From the NCBI RefSeq assembly GCF_013167455.1, contig NZ_CP038328.1: a stretch of DNA of 64,000 bases; one strand, 5' to 3'. The notes beneath the pieces were generated by a model that saw nothing but the letters and a program-made list of their open reading frames with translations, made no database searches and was not told the origin of the DNA. Below are positions 22,018 through 48,717 of this stretch, in pieces. The translations under genes and the position numbers were made by a program. Positions within the stretch are counted from its first letter, which is position 1. Each line of letters starts with the position of its first letter. This stretch comes from Escherichia coli O157:H7. Lineage in GTDB: Bacteria; Pseudomonadota; Gammaproteobacteria; Enterobacterales; Enterobacteriaceae.

Positions 22018-22296
22018 TTAGGGAAACTGGCGTCTTGCGTGGATCACGTTTACTACTTCAACGCTTGATGTTGTTACGCGGTATAGAATTATATAGTTAG
22101 GGTGGGCTACAATCTCACGCAAGCCAGGTACTCTGTCGCTTGGTGGGTATAAATACGGATGTTCGGATAACGGCAGCACACAACCCCTTAATCGCTGCCA
22201 TAAGCGTTCAGCCGCATCTATGTCGAAACGAGCAATATAACTAGTTATATCATCTAGGTCGGTATCTGCGCTTTCAAGCCATAACACGGGTAACAT
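22018..22296 (-). CDS. ParE/RelE-superfamily type II toxin
   Basis: About 93 aa from MLPVLWLESADTD... to ...EIVAHPNYIILYRVTTSSVEVVNVIHARRQFP, a typical ParE/RelE C-terminus; start overlaps the stop of the upstream small ORF. Confidence 0.6.
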   Translation of the reverse strand: MLPVLWLESADTDLDDITSYIARFDIDAAERLWQRLRGCVLPLSEHPYLYPPSDRVPGLREIVAHPNYIILYRVTTSSVEVVNVIHARRQFP

Positions 22297-22297
22297 T

Positions 22298-22489
22298 TTA
22301 CTGCTTGCTCCGTTCCTTGCGCATCTTAGCAAAGCGTTCTGCCATTCTGCGCTCAACTTCGTCATGGGGAATTGCTGGGCGCGGATCTGCAAGGCTCGTT
22401 GCTACTTTCGCACGCAGCCATTCGTTGTAACTGTTTTCTTGTTCAATGGTTTCAAATTCAGAAACCATTGGTGAAAGGGCTCTATTCAT
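22298..22489 (-). CDS. Putative antitoxin (ParD-like) paired with the ParE-like toxin
   Basis: Small acidic/basic protein MNRALSPMVSEFETIEQENSYNEWLRAKVATSLADPRPAIPHDEVERRMAERFAKMRKE; stop is 1-2 nt from the toxin start. Confidence 0.5.
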   Translation of the reverse strand: MNRALSPMVSEFETIEQENSYNEWLRAKVATSLADPRPAIPHDEVERRMAERFAKMRKERSKQ

Positions 22490-27532: not shown

Positions 27533-27639
27533 GGTAAAAACGGTTTGCGGTAAAGCGAGAGTTAAGTAGAATTGCTGCGGGTGCTTGAGGCTGTCTGCCT
27601 CGGGCATGCCACCGTAAGGCAGACAGAGAAAAGCCCCAG

Positions 27640-27710
27640 TTAACATTACGCGTCCTGCAAGACGCCTAACATTAATCTGAGGCCAATTTCATGCTAGACA
27701 CATGTAGGTT
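27640..27710 (-). ncRNA. sok: Predicted Sok-like antisense RNA region (position inferred, not mapped)
   Basis: Inferred from hok/sok architecture: antisense to the mok translation-initiation region; boundaries not determined. Confidence 0.25.
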
Positions 27711-27903
27711 AGCCTCTTACGCGCCGAAAGGCAAGGAGAAGCAGGCTATGAAGCAGCAAAAGGCGATGTTAATCGCCCTGATCGTCATCTGTATTACCGT
27801 CATAGTGACGGCACTGGTAACGAGGAAAGACCTCTGCGAGGTACGAATCCGAACCGGCCAGACGGAGGTCGCTGTCTTCACAGCTTACGAACCTGAGGAG
27901 TAA
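27691..27903 (+). CDS. mok: mok (modulator of killing) reading frame overlapping hok
   Basis: ORF MLDTCRLASYAPKGKEKQA... in the hok frame, starting upstream of hok as in hok/sok loci. Confidence 0.55.
   Translation: MLDTCRLASYAPKGKEKQAMKQQKAMLIALIVICITVIVTALVTRKDLCEVRIRTGQTEVAVFTAYEPEE
27748..27903 (+). CDS. hokD: Hok-family type I toxin (HokD/RelF-like)
   Basis: MKQQKAMLIALIVICITVIVTALVTRKDLCEVRIRTGQTEVAVFTAYEPEE, near-identical to recalled HokD. Confidence 0.85.
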   Translation: MKQQKAMLIALIVICITVIVTALVTRKDLCEVRIRTGQTEVAVFTAYEPEE

Positions 27904-37755: not shown

Positions 37756-37980
37756 TTAAGTAAACCTGTCTGAACAGGTTCTCTGGTCGTGTTTGTCTTT
37801 GTTGGGTACAAATTGAGAATATTTTTCATTAATTAATCTTCTTCTGCAGGCTTCAATAACCCACGCTGAAAAATTTCCTGAACCTTTCAGATCAAGAGCG
37901 ATGTTAATTTGTTCAATCATCTGGTTTGGAAATCGGATGTTGCGGGTTGTTGTTCTGCGGGTTCTGTTCTTTGATGACAT
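37756..37980 (-). CDS. YnfO/YlcI-like small prophage protein with putative ribbon-helix-helix motif
   Basis: MSSKNRTRRTTTRNIRFPNQMIEQINIALDLKGSGNFSAWVIEACRRRL...; position upstream of terminase as in Qin. Confidence 0.45.
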   Translation of the reverse strand: MSSKNRTRRTTTRNIRFPNQMIEQINIALDLKGSGNFSAWVIEACRRRLINEKYSQFVPNKDKHDQRTCSDRFT

Positions 37981-38169
37981 AATGTTGCCCCATATTCAGT
38001 GTTGCTGATTTGTATTATCTGAAGTTGCTTTTACGTTAATTTGATGCAGATCAATTAATACGATACCTGCGTCATAATTGATTATTTGACGTGGTTTGAT
38101 GGCGTAGATGCACGTTGTGACATGTAGATGATAATTATTATCATTTTGCGGGTCCTTTCCGGCGATCCG

Positions 38170-38350
38170 ACCGGTTACGGGGCGGCGACCTCGCGGGTTT
38201 TCGCTATTTATGAAAATTTTCCGGGGAAAATCATGTCGGTACTTCTCGAACATAACTATTTGTTTTTTCTAATATCGAATCCGTAAAGGTCCGACATGAA
38301 AACGCCTGAAAAAGTCATTTTCGGGCACTTTCATGTCGGACCCTGTATTT
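38170..38350. promoter_or_regulatory. cos site: lambda-identical cosN (12-nt end GGGCGGCGACCT at 38180-38191) plus a divergent cosB with three CATGTCGGAC-type sites
   Basis: ACGGGGCGGCGACCTCGCGGGTTTTCGCTATTTATGAAAATTTTCCGG matches recalled lambda cos; downstream sites at about 38236-38246, 38292-38305 (inverted) and 38331-38345. Confidence 0.8.
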
Positions 38351-38366
38351 GTTGTGAGACTGTTTC

Positions 38367-38886
38367 ATGAAGGTTAATAAAAAGAAACTTGCCGAAATTT
38401 TCAACGTGGATCCGCGAACGATTGAACGCTGGCAGTCTCAGGGGCTCCCTTGCGTCTCCGGAGGTGGTAAGGGCGTTGAATCTGTATTTGATACCGCCAC
38501 GGCAATTCAGTGGTATGCGCAGAGGGAAGCTGATATCGAAAATGAAAAACTCCGTAAAGAGGTTGAGGATTACAGGGCTGCCAGCGAGGCAGATCTCCAG
38601 CCTGGGACTATTGAGTACGAACGCCATCGACTTACGCGTGCGCAGGCTGACGCCCAGGAGCTGAAGAATGCCAGAGACTCCGCAGAAGTGGTGGAAACCG
38701 CATTCTGTACTTTCGTGCTGTCACGGATCGCAGGTGAAATTGCCAGTATTCTTGACGGGATCCCTCTCTCAGTACAGCGGCGTTTTCCGGAACTGGAAAA
38801 CCGACATGTTGATTTCCTGAAACGGGATATTATCAAAGCCATGAACAAAGCAGCCGCGCTGGATGAACTGATACCGGGGTTGCTGA

Positions 38887-38912
<26 letters not shown>
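38367..38912 (+). CDS. Nu1: Terminase small subunit Nu1
   Basis: [28 protein letters not shown]...; C-terminal two-thirds near-identical to lambda Nu1. Confidence 0.9.
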
Positions 38913-42593
<3,681 letters not shown>

Positions 42594-42613
<20 letters not shown>

Positions 42614-43913
42614 TCTCCCGCATATTGCCAGCATGGCTTTTAATGAGCCGCTGATGCTTGAACCCGCCTATGCGCGGGTTTTCTTTTGTGCGCTTGCAGG
42701 CCAGCTTGGGATCAGCCGCCTGACGGATGCAGTATCCGGCGACAGCCTGACTGCCGGAGAGGCACCCGCGGCGCTGGCGTTATCCGGTGATGATGACGGA
42801 CCACGACAGGCCCGGAGTTATCAGGTCATGAACGGCATCGCCGTGCTGCCGGTGTCCGGTACGCTGGTCAGCCGGACGCGGGCGCTGCAGCCGTATTCGG
42901 GAATGACCGGTTACAACGGCATTATCGCCCGTCTGCAACAGGCTGCCAGCGATCCGATGGTGGACGGCATTCTGCTCGATATGGACACACCGGGCGGGAT
43001 GGTGGCGGGAGCATTTGACTGTGCTGACATCATCGCCCGTGTGCGAGACATAAAACCGGTATGGGCGCTGGCCAACGACATGAACTGCAGTGCAGGTCAG
43101 CTGCTTGCCAGCGCCGCCTCCCGGCGTCTGGTCACGCAGACCGCCCGGACAGGCTCCATCGGCGTCATGATGGCTCACAGTAATTACGGTGCTGCCCTGG
43201 AGAAACAGGGCGTGGAAATCACGCTGATTTACAGCGGCAGCCATAAGGTGGATGGCAACCCCTACAGCCATCTACCGGGTGATGTCCGGGAAACACTGCA
43301 GTCCCGGATGGATGCAACCCGCCGGATGTTTGCGCAGAAGGTGTCGGCATATACCGGCCTGTCCGTGCAGGCTGTGCTGGATACCGAGGCTGCAGTGTAC
43401 AGCGGTCAGGAGGCCATTGATGCCGGACTGGCTGATGAACTTGTCAACAGCACCGATGCGATCACCGTTATGCGTGATGCACTGGATGCACGTAAATCCC
43501 GTCTCTCAGGAGGGCGAATGACCAAAGAGACTCAATCAACAACTGTTTCAGCCACTGCTTCGCAGGCTGACGTTACTGGCGTGGTGCCAGCGACGGAGGG
43601 CGAAAACGCCAGCGCGGCGCAGCCGGACGTGAACGCGCAGATCACCGCTGCGGTTGCGGCAGAAAACAGCCGCATTATGGGGATCCTCAACTGTGAGGAG
43701 GCTCACGGACGCGAAGAACAGGCCCGCGTGCTGGCAGAAACCCCCGGTATGACCGTGGAAACGGCCCGCCGCATTCTGGCCGCAGCACCACAGAGTGCAC
43801 AGGCGCGCAGTGATACTGCGCTGGATCGTCTGATGCAGGGGGCACCGGCACCGCTGGCTGCAGGTAACCCGGCATCTGATGCCGTTAACGATTTGCTGAA
43901 CACACCAGTGTAA
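42594..43913 (+). CDS. C: Head protease/scaffold gpC (Nu3 scaffold encoded in-frame within its 3' part)
   Basis: GTG start; VTAELRNLPHIASMAFNEPLMLEPAYARVFF..., lambda C. Confidence 0.9.
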
Positions 43914-48277: not shown

Positions 48278-48717
48278 ACTTTGTCCTGAAACTGGCGCGA
48301 GAGATGGGGAGACCCGACTGGCGCGCCATGCTTGCCGGGATGACATCCACCGAATATGCCGACTGGCGACGTTTTTACTGCACGCATTATTTTCAGGATA
48401 CCCAACTGGACGCTCATTTTTCCGGGCTGATGTACGCCGTACTCAGCCTGTTTTTTGGCGATCCGGATATGCATCCGGCGGATTTCAGTCTGCTTGCTCC
48501 AGCGTGTGAGGAAGAGCAGACGGAGATGCCGGACGAGGAAGAAATGCTGATGCAGAAAGCGACAGGAGTTGCCGGAGGCGTCCGGTTCGGAGGGGACGGA
48601 GGGCGCGATATTTCACCTTCTGCGGATGTGGTGGATGTCAGCGAGGATGATGTTGCATTAATGATGGCTTCAGCGGGGATTTCCGGAGGTGTGAGATATG
48701 TCCCAGCCAGCGGGTGA
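48253..48717 (+). CDS. T: gpT segment of the G-T fusion, reached by -1 programmed frameshift at A AAA AAG (48253-48259)
   Basis: Heptamer A_AAA_AAG lies in the G zero frame 6 codons before the G stop; the -1 frame is open from there to 48717 (...MGRPDWRAMLAGMTSTEYADWRRFY...), lambda T-like. Confidence 0.8.
   Translation, partial: KKAFEGELNFVLKLAREMGRPDWRAMLAGMTSTEYADWRRFYCTHYFQDTQLDAHFSGLMYAVLSLFFGDPDMHPADFSLLAPACEEEQTEMPDEEEMLMQKATGVAGGVRFGGDGGRDISPSADVVDVSEDDVALMMASAGISGGVRYVPASG

What the first reader, a model, noticed from the sequence alone, without database searches (positions are those of the whole stretch)
38170..38912. Lambda-identical cosN with re-tooled cosB and a divergent Nu1 DNA-binding N-terminus
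The nicking site and flanking 45 bp match lambda, but the downstream terminase-binding sites are replaced by three CATGTCGGAC-type sites, two of them forming a 14-bp inverted repeat. The Nu1 N-terminal domain differs from lambda while the rest is near-identical, consistent with co-evolved packaging specificity.
Basis: partly seen in the sequence, partly recalled or inferred. Interest (0 to 1): 0.4.

Follow-up and report, generated by a model that had tools for sequence, protein, structure and literature searches.

The report
Phage-21-type packaging site in lambda-like prophage
This is the DNA-packaging start site and small terminase gene of an E. coli O157:H7 prophage, which carries the long-known phage 21 recognition cassette spliced into an otherwise lambda-type packaging region, so it is ordinary.

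Summary
cosN and its flanks are identical to lambda (exact run 38173-38224). Three CATGTCGG sites follow, at 38232, 38291 (inverted) and 38332. The small terminase (38367-38912) is unlike lambda Nu1 in residues 1-71 (59%) and 98% identical after that.

The sites are not newly re-tooled. They are the R3, R2 and R1 boxes of phage 21 cosB, as annotated in the phage 21 GenBank record M81255, with the IHF site I1 between R3 and R2. A three-way comparison shows a sharp mosaic. The window is lambda-type up to 38223, 21-type from 38225 to 38578 (cosB plus the DNA-binding domain), and lambda-type from 38582 through A, W and B.

The recognition helix ([11 protein letters not shown]20, S24) and the R3 specificity bases (G at bp 56 and 59) are those of phage 21. 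The large terminase is 98% lambda gpA. The architecture matches the laboratory hybrid lambda-21 hy51.

The 561 bp across both junctions are 100% identical in many O157:H7 and O121 genomes, and at least 99% identical in 369 records.

One small curiosity: the 27-bp R2-R1 spacer is inverted relative to phage 21 and lambda.

Verdict: already known, low interest.

The parts
38149..38160 (+). R4 box containing cosQ (GGGTCCT, 38150-38156), the site needed to end packaging
   Evidence: Identical to the R4 element annotated in phage 21 record M81255 and to lambda. Placing cosQ at lambda bp 48473-48479 rests on my own knowledge of the lambda sequence.
38173..38224 (+). Lambda-identical block holding cosN (12-nt cohesive end GGGCGGCGACCT, 38180-38191) and the I2 IHF-like element (38209-38223)
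   Evidence: 52-bp exact run with lambda. cosN is unique in the window. The informative sites at 38197, 38203, 38221 and 38223 are lambda-type, not 21-type. I2 was mapped from the M81255 annotation.
38229..38244 (+). R3, 21-type small-terminase binding site (AATCATGTCGGTACTT)
   Evidence: 15/16 identical to the annotated R3 of phage 21 and 10/16 to lambda R3. G at bp 56 (38235) and G at bp 59 (38238) are the 21-type specificity bases (PMC4669245).
38251..38265 (+). I1, IHF bending site between R3 and R2
   Evidence: 13/15 identical to the annotated I1 of phage 21. The minus strand reads AAACAAATAGTTA, one mismatch from WATCAANNNNTTR. That pattern is not enriched in the window, so the support comes from position and homology only.
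38286..38301 (-). R2, 21-type binding site in inverted orientation (AAGGTCCGACATGAAA on the + strand)
   Evidence: 16/16 identical to the annotated R2 of phage 21. The core GTCCGACATGAAA is invariant in both natural sub-lineages.
38302..38328 (.). 27-bp R2-R1 spacer, inverted relative to phage 21 and lambda
   Evidence: 24/27 identical to the phage 21 spacer as reverse complement and 17/27 in direct orientation. 8 of 9 informative discriminating positions favour the flipped orientation (p=0.02). The lambda spacer aligns with the phage 21 orientation.
38329..38344 (+). R1, 21-type binding site (TTTCATGTCGGACCCT)
   Evidence: 14/16 identical to the annotated R1 of phage 21. The core TTTCATGTCGG is invariant in both sub-lineages.
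38367..38578 (+). 5' part of the small terminase gene (codons 1-71): 21-type winged helix-turn-helix DNA-binding domain
   Evidence: Residues 1-64 are 89% identical to phage 21 gp1 and 59% to lambda Nu1. Residues 17-26 ([10 protein letters not shown]) are identical to phage 21, including E20 and S24. PDB chain 7lwr (a 54-aa chain that differs from phage 21 gp1 residues 1-54 at no position shown) matches at 1.5e-27 and 1j9i (lambda, 68 aa) at 1.2e-23.
38582..38912 (+). 3' part of the small terminase gene (codons 73-181): lambda-type oligomerisation and TerL-binding part
   Evidence: The DNA is 95.2% identical to lambda and 58.5% to phage 21. Protein residues 72-181 are 98% lambda and 50% phage 21. 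The whole protein matches Pfam PF07471 Phage_Nu1 at 5e-91.
38887..40812 (+). Large terminase gene (lambda A type), overlapping the end of the small subunit gene by 26 nt
   Evidence: 629/641 residues identical to lambda gpA and 67% to phage 21 gp2. Informative sites are lambda-type through to 43000.

Best explanation
The region is the cohesive-end packaging site (cos) and small terminase gene of a lambdoid prophage of E. coli O157:H7. It is a natural mosaic. A 354-bp phage-21-type specificity cassette sits between a lambda-type cosQ-cosN-I2 segment on the left and a lambda-type remainder of the packaging and head operon on the right. The cassette holds cosB with R3-I1-R2-R1 plus codons 1-71 of the small terminase, which encode its winged helix-turn-helix DNA-binding domain. 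The lambda-type right flank includes the oligomerisation and TerL-binding part of TerS, then TerL, W and the portal gene.

Inferred mechanism, carried over from work on lambda and phage 21: IHF bends the DNA at I1. A dimer of 21-type DNA-binding domains docks on R3 and the inverted R2 across the bend, with R1 as a further site. The lambda-type C-terminal part of TerS recruits the lambda-type TerL. TerL nicks cosN with a 12-nt stagger and then translocates the DNA into the prohead. cosQ is used at termination. The phage therefore packages DNA that carries the 21-type cosB and should discriminate against lambda-cosB DNA, although its motor and head are lambda-like.

Shown here: the sequence anatomy, the mosaic boundaries, identity of the specificity-determining residues and bases with phage 21, and the prevalence of the arrangement. 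Inferred: binding, cleavage and discrimination.
For: - Site homology: the phage 21 record M81255 annotates R4, cosN, I2, R3, I1, R2, R1 and gene 1. In alignment these fall on window 38149-38160, 38163-38209, 38209-38223, 38229-38244, 38251-38265, 38286-38301, 38329-38344 and 38367 onward. R-site identities to phage 21 are 15/16, 16/16 and 14/16.
- Mosaic boundaries: three-way informative sites switch from lambda-type to 21-type between 38223 and 38225, and back between 38578 and 38582. They stay lambda-type to 43000.
- Block identities: 97.4% lambda / 90.8% phage 21 for 38149-38224; 59.0% / 85.9% for 38225-38578; 95.2% / 58.5% for 38582-38912.
- Specificity determinants: the recognition helix is identical to phage 21 (E20, S24), and R3 bp 56 and bp 59 are both G as in phage 21. 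PMC4669245 names these positions as the specificity determinants.
- Matching partners: TerL is 98% identical to lambda gpA. The protein matches Pfam Phage_Nu1 at 5e-91.
- Laboratory precedent: the hybrid lambda-21 hy51 has cosB-21 and a TerS whose 5' half comes from gene 1 and 3' half from Nu1. It is viable and has 21 specificity (PMC4669245, PMC9026076).
- Conservation: the R-site cores are invariant across two natural sub-lineages while the spacers vary.
- Occurrence: the same cos and TerS, at 98.9% DNA identity, are in the deposited phage genome IdasGreatGrand PP925829. The region is 100% identical in many O157:H7 and O121 genomes.
- Origin of the left junction: cos is a recombination hotspot in lambda x prophage crosses (PMC3945230). 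That fits a left junction only 45 bp from the nick.
Against: - No binding, cleavage or packaging data exist for this particular variant.
- The cassette is only about 86-88% identical to phage 21 at the DNA level. The wing region (residues 27-41) is 73% identical to phage 21 and partly lambda-like (GGGKG). R3 has A instead of G at bp 54. The R2-R1 spacer is inverted. Fine specificity could therefore differ.
- The host prophage has a truncated, frameshifted integrase (annotation of the identical sequence). The element as a whole may not be able to excise, so cos may not be in current use in this strain.
Confidence: 0.93

Rival explanations
1. One reading: a lambda lineage re-tooled its own cosB, and the Nu1 N-terminus co-evolved with it in place, giving a new private packaging specificity.
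For: cosN and the C-terminal two thirds of Nu1 are lambda-like, while the sites and the N-terminus differ from lambda.
Against: The divergent block is not unique. It is 86% identical to phage 21, with R sites at 15/16, 16/16 and 14/16 and an identical recognition helix. It ends at sharp junctions (38224/38225 and 38578/38582), which is the signature of recombination rather than gradual divergence.
Confidence: 0.03
2. A third, subtly different specificity: the O157-type sub-lineage of the 21 cassette discriminates against authentic phage 21 DNA, or has a broadened range. The candidate differences are wing residues 27-41, A at R3 bp 54, the altered outer part of R1 and the flipped R2-R1 spacer.
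For: There are two distinct sub-lineages in E. coli genomes: 567 records at 95% identity or more to the window and 806 records at 80-90%. The wing is 73% identical to phage 21. The spacer is inverted.
Against: The recognition helix is identical to phage 21. The R-site cores are invariant between the sub-lineages. The bases known to discriminate lambda from phage 21 (bp 56 and 59) are the same.
Confidence: 0.07
3. A decaying remnant with no function: the cos and terminase genes of a cryptic prophage, comparable to the Nu1-homologue remnants of K-12 cryptic prophages.
For: The prophage integrase is annotated as truncated and frameshifted in the identical sequence of strain ECP19-598. The prophage is a recombinant between two prophage loci.
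Against: The TerS (181 aa), TerL (641 aa) and portal (533 aa) reading frames are full length, and TerL is 98% identical to lambda gpA. All cos subsites are present. A deposited phage genome carries the same module at 98.9% identity.
Confidence: 0.1

Closest known systems
Phage 21 cos and gene 1 (GenBank M81255; phage 21 packaging specificity)
   Same: The order of subsites is the same: R4/cosQ, cosN, I2, R3, I1, inverted R2, R1. The R sites are 15/16, 16/16 and 14/16 identical. The recognition helix is identical (E20, S24). R3 bp 56 and bp 59 are both G.
   Different: The 3' 60% of the small-subunit gene and the whole large subunit are lambda-type, not 21-type (50% and 67% protein identity to phage 21). 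The cosN-I2 flank is lambda-type. The R2-R1 spacer is inverted. The wing region differs at 4 of 15 residues.
Laboratory hybrid lambda-21 hy51 (Frackman, Siegele and Feiss 1985, as described in PMC4669245 and PMC9026076)
   Same: It has cosB-21 plus a chimeric small terminase with the phage 21 DNA-binding N-terminal part and the lambda TerL-binding C-terminal part, working with lambda TerL. It is viable and has 21 specificity.
   Different: hy51 replaces the whole left chromosome end, about 600 bp. Here the cosN-I2 segment is lambda-type and the right junction lies about 400 bp from the left end (38578-38582, codon 71-73). The window's version is natural and diverged about 12-14% from phage 21. 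The exact hy51 crossover could not be checked because the original paper is not held.
Lambda cos and Nu1
   Same: cosQ, cosN and I2 are identical. cosB has the same architecture. TerS residues 72-181 are 98% identical and TerL is 98% identical.
   Different: The R-site sequences differ (lambda CGTTTCC-type against CATGTCGG-type, 10/16 or fewer matches). The DNA-binding domain is 59% identical. The recognition helix has E20/S24 instead of lambda's Q20/E24.
N15 / Monarch-type cosB (a third lambdoid packaging specificity)
   Same: It belongs to the lambda-like cos family, with a TerS N-terminal helix-turn-helix domain reading an R3-like site (PMC4669245).
   Different: N15 has a single R3 and a different recognition helix. 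The window has the complex tripartite cosB with 21-type sequences. No comparison with N15 sequence was run here.

Membership tests
Lambda-like cos site (cosQ-cosN-cosB) | 12-nt cohesive-end sequence at cosN identical or near-identical to GGGCGGCGACCT | tested here: met
   One exact match, at 38180-38191. There is a 52-bp exact run with lambda around it.
Lambda-like cos site (cosQ-cosN-cosB) | cosQ upstream of cosN | tested here: met
   CGGGTCCTTTCC at 38149-38160 is identical to the element in lambda and phage 21.
Lambda-like cos site (cosQ-cosN-cosB) | Complex cosB: three R sequences, with R2 inverted relative to R3 and R1 | tested here: met
   The sites lie at 38229-38244 (+), 38286-38301 (inverted) and 38329-38344 (+).
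Lambda-like cos site (cosQ-cosN-cosB) | IHF site I1 between R3 and R2 | tested here: inconclusive
   The element is 13/15 identical to phage 21's annotated I1 and one mismatch from the IHF consensus. That consensus occurs at chance frequency in the window (52 found, 53 expected), so only position and homology support it.
Lambda-like cos site (cosQ-cosN-cosB) | Terminase nicks here and virion DNA ends here | not testable with these tools
   This needs sequencing of virion DNA ends or an in vitro cos-cleavage assay.
Phage 21 packaging specificity | R3 carries the 21-type bases at bp 56 and bp 59 | tested here: met
   bp 56 (38235) is G and bp 59 (38238) is G, as in phage 21. Lambda has T and C. 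The positions are named in PMC4669245.
Phage 21 packaging specificity | TerS recognition helix carries the 21-type residues 20 and 24 | tested here: met
   E20 and S24 are present, and residues 17-26 are identical to phage 21 gp1. Lambda has Q20 and E24.
Phage 21 packaging specificity | Packages 21-cosB DNA and discriminates against lambda-cosB DNA by more than 1000-fold | not testable with these tools
   This is a functional assay (helper packaging as in PMC4669245).
Small terminase of the Nu1 family (Pfam PF07471) | Full-length match to the family profile | tested here: met
   Phage_Nu1 matches at E = 5e-91, covering residues 1-164 against model positions 1-164 of 164.
Small terminase of the Nu1 family (Pfam PF07471) | [quoted passage not shown] | tested here: met
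   Sequence matches to PDB chains 6hn7_B (4e-42, residues 1-98), 7lwr_A (1.5e-27, residues 1-54) and 1j9i_A (1.2e-23, residues 1-68). No structure prediction was run.
hy51-like chimeric TerS (phage 21 DNA-binding domain + lambda TerL-binding domain) | A crossover inside the gene, with the N-terminal part 21-type, the C-terminal part lambda-type, and a lambda-type TerL downstream | tested here: met
   The switch lies at 38578-38582. Residues 1-64 are 89% phage 21, residues 72-181 are 98% lambda, and TerL is 98% lambda.

The most novel reading that the evidence does not exclude
The O157-type sub-lineage of the phage 21 cassette may be a functionally distinct packaging variant. It is 86-88% identical to phage 21, has a partly lambda-like wing, and has its R2-R1 spacer flipped by recombination between the inverted R2 and R1 repeats. 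Two outcomes would be informative. If the variant has altered or broadened specificity relative to authentic phage 21, it is a new specificity. If it packages equally well, the flip is a natural experiment showing that the orientation of the R2-R1 segment does not matter for terminase assembly.
Probability: 0.07. Interest if true: 0.3.

Novelty: already known. Interest (0 to 1): 0.12.

Why it matters
It matters little beyond annotation. It is a clean natural example of a principle the Feiss laboratory established with lambda-21 hybrids. Packaging specificity in lambda-like phages sits in a small swappable module, cosB plus the N-terminal DNA-binding domain of the small terminase. That module can be recombined onto a different terminase motor as long as the C-terminal part of TerS matches TerL.

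In practice, this O157:H7 prophage should be labelled as having phage 21 packaging specificity. It would respond to 21-specific helpers, and to satellites that exploit 21-type TerS, rather than to lambda-specific ones. The inverted R2-R1 spacer is a minor curiosity that could be used to test whether the orientation of that segment matters.

Tried and rejected
- IHF consensus scan: the I1 position matches with one mismatch. The pattern occurs at chance frequency in the window (52 found, 53 expected), so it adds no independent support.
- Promoter and terminator scan of 36900-38500: it returned only consensus-level hits, fewer or no more than in shuffles. The 'terminator-like' hairpin at 38304-38326 is simply the R2-R1 spacer palindrome.
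- Papers with the primary genetics could not be read because they are not held: Sippy et al. 2015 (PMC5006951), Feiss et al. 2010 (PMC2815929) and Feiss et al. 2015 (PMC4461450). The positions of the specificity contacts are therefore taken from the summary in PMC4669245, and the exact hy51 crossover was not checked.
- A text search for PDB code 7LWR found only unrelated papers, so the identity of that chain rests on its sequence alone.
- Using O157:H7 strain TR01 as an annotation proxy for the whole window failed. There the same cos module sits in a different prophage, next to ompW. Strains ECP19-598 and ERL05-0623 were used instead.
- In-place co-evolution, a non-functional remnant and a third specificity were considered as alternatives. 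See the rival explanations.
- No structure prediction or large protein database search was run, because the sequence-level answer was unambiguous.

Full report
**1. What is in the sequence**

Window 38140-38920 reads as a complete lambda-type cohesive-end site followed by a 181-codon gene (38367-38912) and an overlapping 641-codon gene (38887-40812).

- GGGCGGCGACCT, the lambda cohesive end, occurs once in the 64 kb, at 38180-38191.
- The longest exact run shared with lambda around it is 38173-38224.
- Downstream, CATGTCGG occurs at 38232 (+), 38291 (-) and 38332 (+).
- The 12-mer TCATGTCGGWMC matches exactly only at these three places in the window.
- The last two sites lie in a 25-nt inverted repeat, 88% complementary, whose outer 14 bp pair perfectly.

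**2. What the sites are**

A megablast of 38100-38950 against the phage collection returned the phage 21 head-operon record M81255. Its depositors annotated R4, the terminase cutting region, I2, R3, I1, R2, R1, I0 and gene 1. I aligned the window with phage 21 and with lambda (as phage DE3). The phage 21 features map to the window as follows:

| Feature | Window coordinates | Identity to phage 21 |
|---|---|---|
| R4 | 38149-38160 | identical in all three phages |
| cosN region | 38163-38209 | - |
| I2 | 38209-38223 | - |
| R3 | 38229-38244 | 15/16 |
| I1 | 38251-38265 | 13/15 |
| R2 | 38286-38301 | 16/16 |
| R1 | 38329-38344 | 14/16 |
| gene 1 start | 38367 | - |

The 'CATGTCGGAC-type' sites are thus the standard R boxes of phage 21 cosB. 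They are neither lambda R sites nor new sites.

**3. The mosaic**

I aligned window 38100-43000 with lambda and phage 21 and classed every site where the two references differ. The window is lambda-type up to 38223, 21-type from 38225 to 38578, and lambda-type from 38582 onward. It stays lambda-type through A, W and B, with typically 40-70 lambda-only sites against 0-3 21-only sites per 150 bp.

| Block | Identity to lambda | Identity to phage 21 |
|---|---|---|
| 38149-38224 | 97.4% | 90.8% |
| 38225-38578 | 59.0% | 85.9% |
| 38582-38912 | 95.2% | 58.5% |

At the protein level:

- Residues 1-64 are 89% identical to phage 21 gp1 and 59% to lambda Nu1.
- Residues 72-181 are 98% identical to lambda Nu1 and 50% to phage 21 gp1.

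The large subunit is 629/641 identical to lambda gpA and 67% identical to phage 21 gp2. The 21-type block is exactly cosB plus the DNA-binding domain. For comparison, the solved lambda DNA-binding domain 1j9i spans residues 1-68.

**4. Specificity determinants**

PMC4669245 states three relevant points. [quoted passage not shown] The difference lies in the recognition helix and the R sites. Residues 20 and 24 of TerS, and bp 56 and 59 of R3, are the key contacts and clashes.

In the window, residues 17-26 read [10 protein letters not shown], identical to phage 21 (E20, S24; lambda has Q20, E24). Counting from 38180 as bp 1, bp 56 (38235) and bp 59 (38238) are both G, as in phage 21. Lambda has T and C. 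The whole protein is a full-length Phage_Nu1 family member (5e-91). Its N-terminus also matches PDB chain 7lwr, a 54-residue chain with the phage 21 sequence.

**5. Mechanism**

This is inferred from lambda and phage 21 work summarised in PMC9026076 and PMC4669245.

1. IHF bends the DNA at I1.
2. A dimer of DNA-binding domains docks on R3 and the inverted R2 across the bend.
3. The C-terminal part of TerS binds TerL.
4. TerL nicks cosN.

Here the C-terminal part of TerS and TerL are both lambda-type, so they match each other. The N-terminal domain and cosB are both 21-type, so they also match each other.

This is the architecture of the laboratory hybrid lambda-21 hy51. [quoted passage not shown] Both junctions lie in stretches that are conserved between lambda and phage 21: the cosN-I2 segment and the coiled-coil region of the gene. 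That is what homologous recombination would produce. In addition, cos is a recombination hotspot in lambda x prophage crosses (PMC3945230).

**6. How common it is**

The 561 bp from 38140 to 38700, which span both junctions, are 100% identical in many O157:H7 and O121 genomes. They are at least 99% identical in 369 records, and 1,204 of 5,426 complete E. coli genomes hold at least 80% of the query.

The 21-type cassette alone is present in 1,376 genomes and falls into two sub-lineages:

- 567 records at 95% identity or more to the window.
- 806 records at 80-90% identity (the phage 21 / CFT073 type).

Among deposited phage genomes, only IdasGreatGrand (PP925829) carries the same chimera, at 98.9% DNA identity with a 99% identical TerS. 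Across both sub-lineages the R-site cores are invariant while the spacers and the leader vary. That pattern is consistent with selection on the sites.

**7. A small oddity**

Most of the apparent divergence from phage 21 between R2 and R1 is not due to substitutions. The 27-bp spacer (38302-38328) is the reverse complement of the phage 21 spacer.

- It matches 24/27 as reverse complement and 17/27 in direct orientation.
- 8 of 9 informative discriminating positions favour the flipped orientation (p = 0.02).
- The lambda spacer has the phage 21 orientation.

The segment between the inverted R2 and R1 repeats was evidently flipped in the window's sub-lineage. Both orientations exist in deposited phage genomes.

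**8. Context**

The window is E. coli O157:H7 chromosome. The ynfM-ynfA flank lies on the left, a lambdoid prophage spans about 16.4 to 62.3 kb, and uspF and ompN lie on the right.

In strain ECP19-598, the part of the window compared (12000-36340) matches, nearly base for base, a prophage at ynfA whose late genes are HK97-like. The window's right end lies about 400 kb away in that strain, in inverted orientation, at uspF/ompN. The two strains therefore differ by a prophage-mediated inversion, with the exchange point upstream of 36341. The cos module belongs to the lambda-like late region. None of this changes the reading of the finding.

**9. Verdict**

The idea of a matched site-and-domain pair is correct. 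The module, however, is the textbook phage 21 packaging specificity, acquired by recombination, in an arrangement reproduced in the laboratory decades ago and present unchanged in hundreds of sequenced genomes. Novelty: already known. Interest: low. The only residual novelty is the flipped spacer and the untested possibility that the O157 sub-lineage differs subtly from phage 21 in specificity.

Noticed in passing
window 38302-38328: The 27-bp spacer between the inverted R2 and R1 boxes is the reverse complement of the spacer in phage 21 (24/27 as reverse complement, 17/27 direct). Lambda has the phage 21 orientation. The segment seems to have been flipped by recombination between the inverted repeats in the O157-type sub-lineage.
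   Followed up: yes
window 12000-36340 versus 57000-64000: Relative to O157:H7 strain ECP19-598, the window joins the early and lysis half of the ynfA-site prophage to the lambda-like late half of a prophage at uspF/ompN. That second prophage lies about 400 kb away and inverted in that strain. This implies a prophage-mediated chromosomal inversion, with the exchange point upstream of 36341. In ECP19-598 the ynfA prophage has HK97-like late genes (HNH endonuclease plus terminase).
   Followed up: partly
window 37360-37674 (+): A 104-aa ORF lies immediately upstream of cos. The identical region of strain TR01 annotates it as a PerC family transcriptional regulator. It resembles the Pch regulators of EHEC (from memory) and had no NCBIfam hit.
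   Followed up: partly
window 37756-37980 (-): A YlcI/YnfO family small protein gene lies between the lysis genes and cos (NCBIfam NF041551, E = 1.4e-08).
   Followed up: partly
window 38801-38808 (-): A fourth CATGTCGG octamer, in inverted orientation, lies inside the lambda-derived 3' part of the small terminase gene (AACATGTCGGTT on the minus strand). The same bases are present in lambda Nu1, so it is probably chance. In this chimera, though, it would resemble a 21-type R core about 620 bp from cosN.
   Followed up: partly
window 38908-38928: Residues 8-14 of the large terminase (QIDILRRD) differ from lambda gpA (QVNRLRHF), and the last residue of TerS is D instead of G. This is a short divergent patch in the gene overlap, shared with phage IdasGreatGrand.
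   Followed up: no
window 20682-20733 (-), 27579-27753 (+), 31692-31864 (+), 30669-30918 (+): Rfam hits above gathering score to DicF sRNA, the sok antitoxin RNA (next to hokD) and STnc100. There are also three prophage tRNA genes: CAT anticodon (annotated tRNA-Ile in the reference genomes), Arg-TCG and Arg-TCT.
   Followed up: no
window about 31000-31010: A poly-G tract, G10 in the window and G11 in strain ECP19-598, lies just upstream of a TerB-family ORF (31096-31523). It is a length polymorphism between otherwise identical prophages.
   Followed up: no
window 16526-17208 (-) and 59764-61815 (+): The prophage integrase is a truncated, frameshifted remnant in the annotation of the identical sequence. 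Three DUF1076 / NleG-family type III effector genes sit at the right end of the prophage, before uspF. A relBE toxin-antitoxin pair lies at 22018-22489.
   Followed up: no
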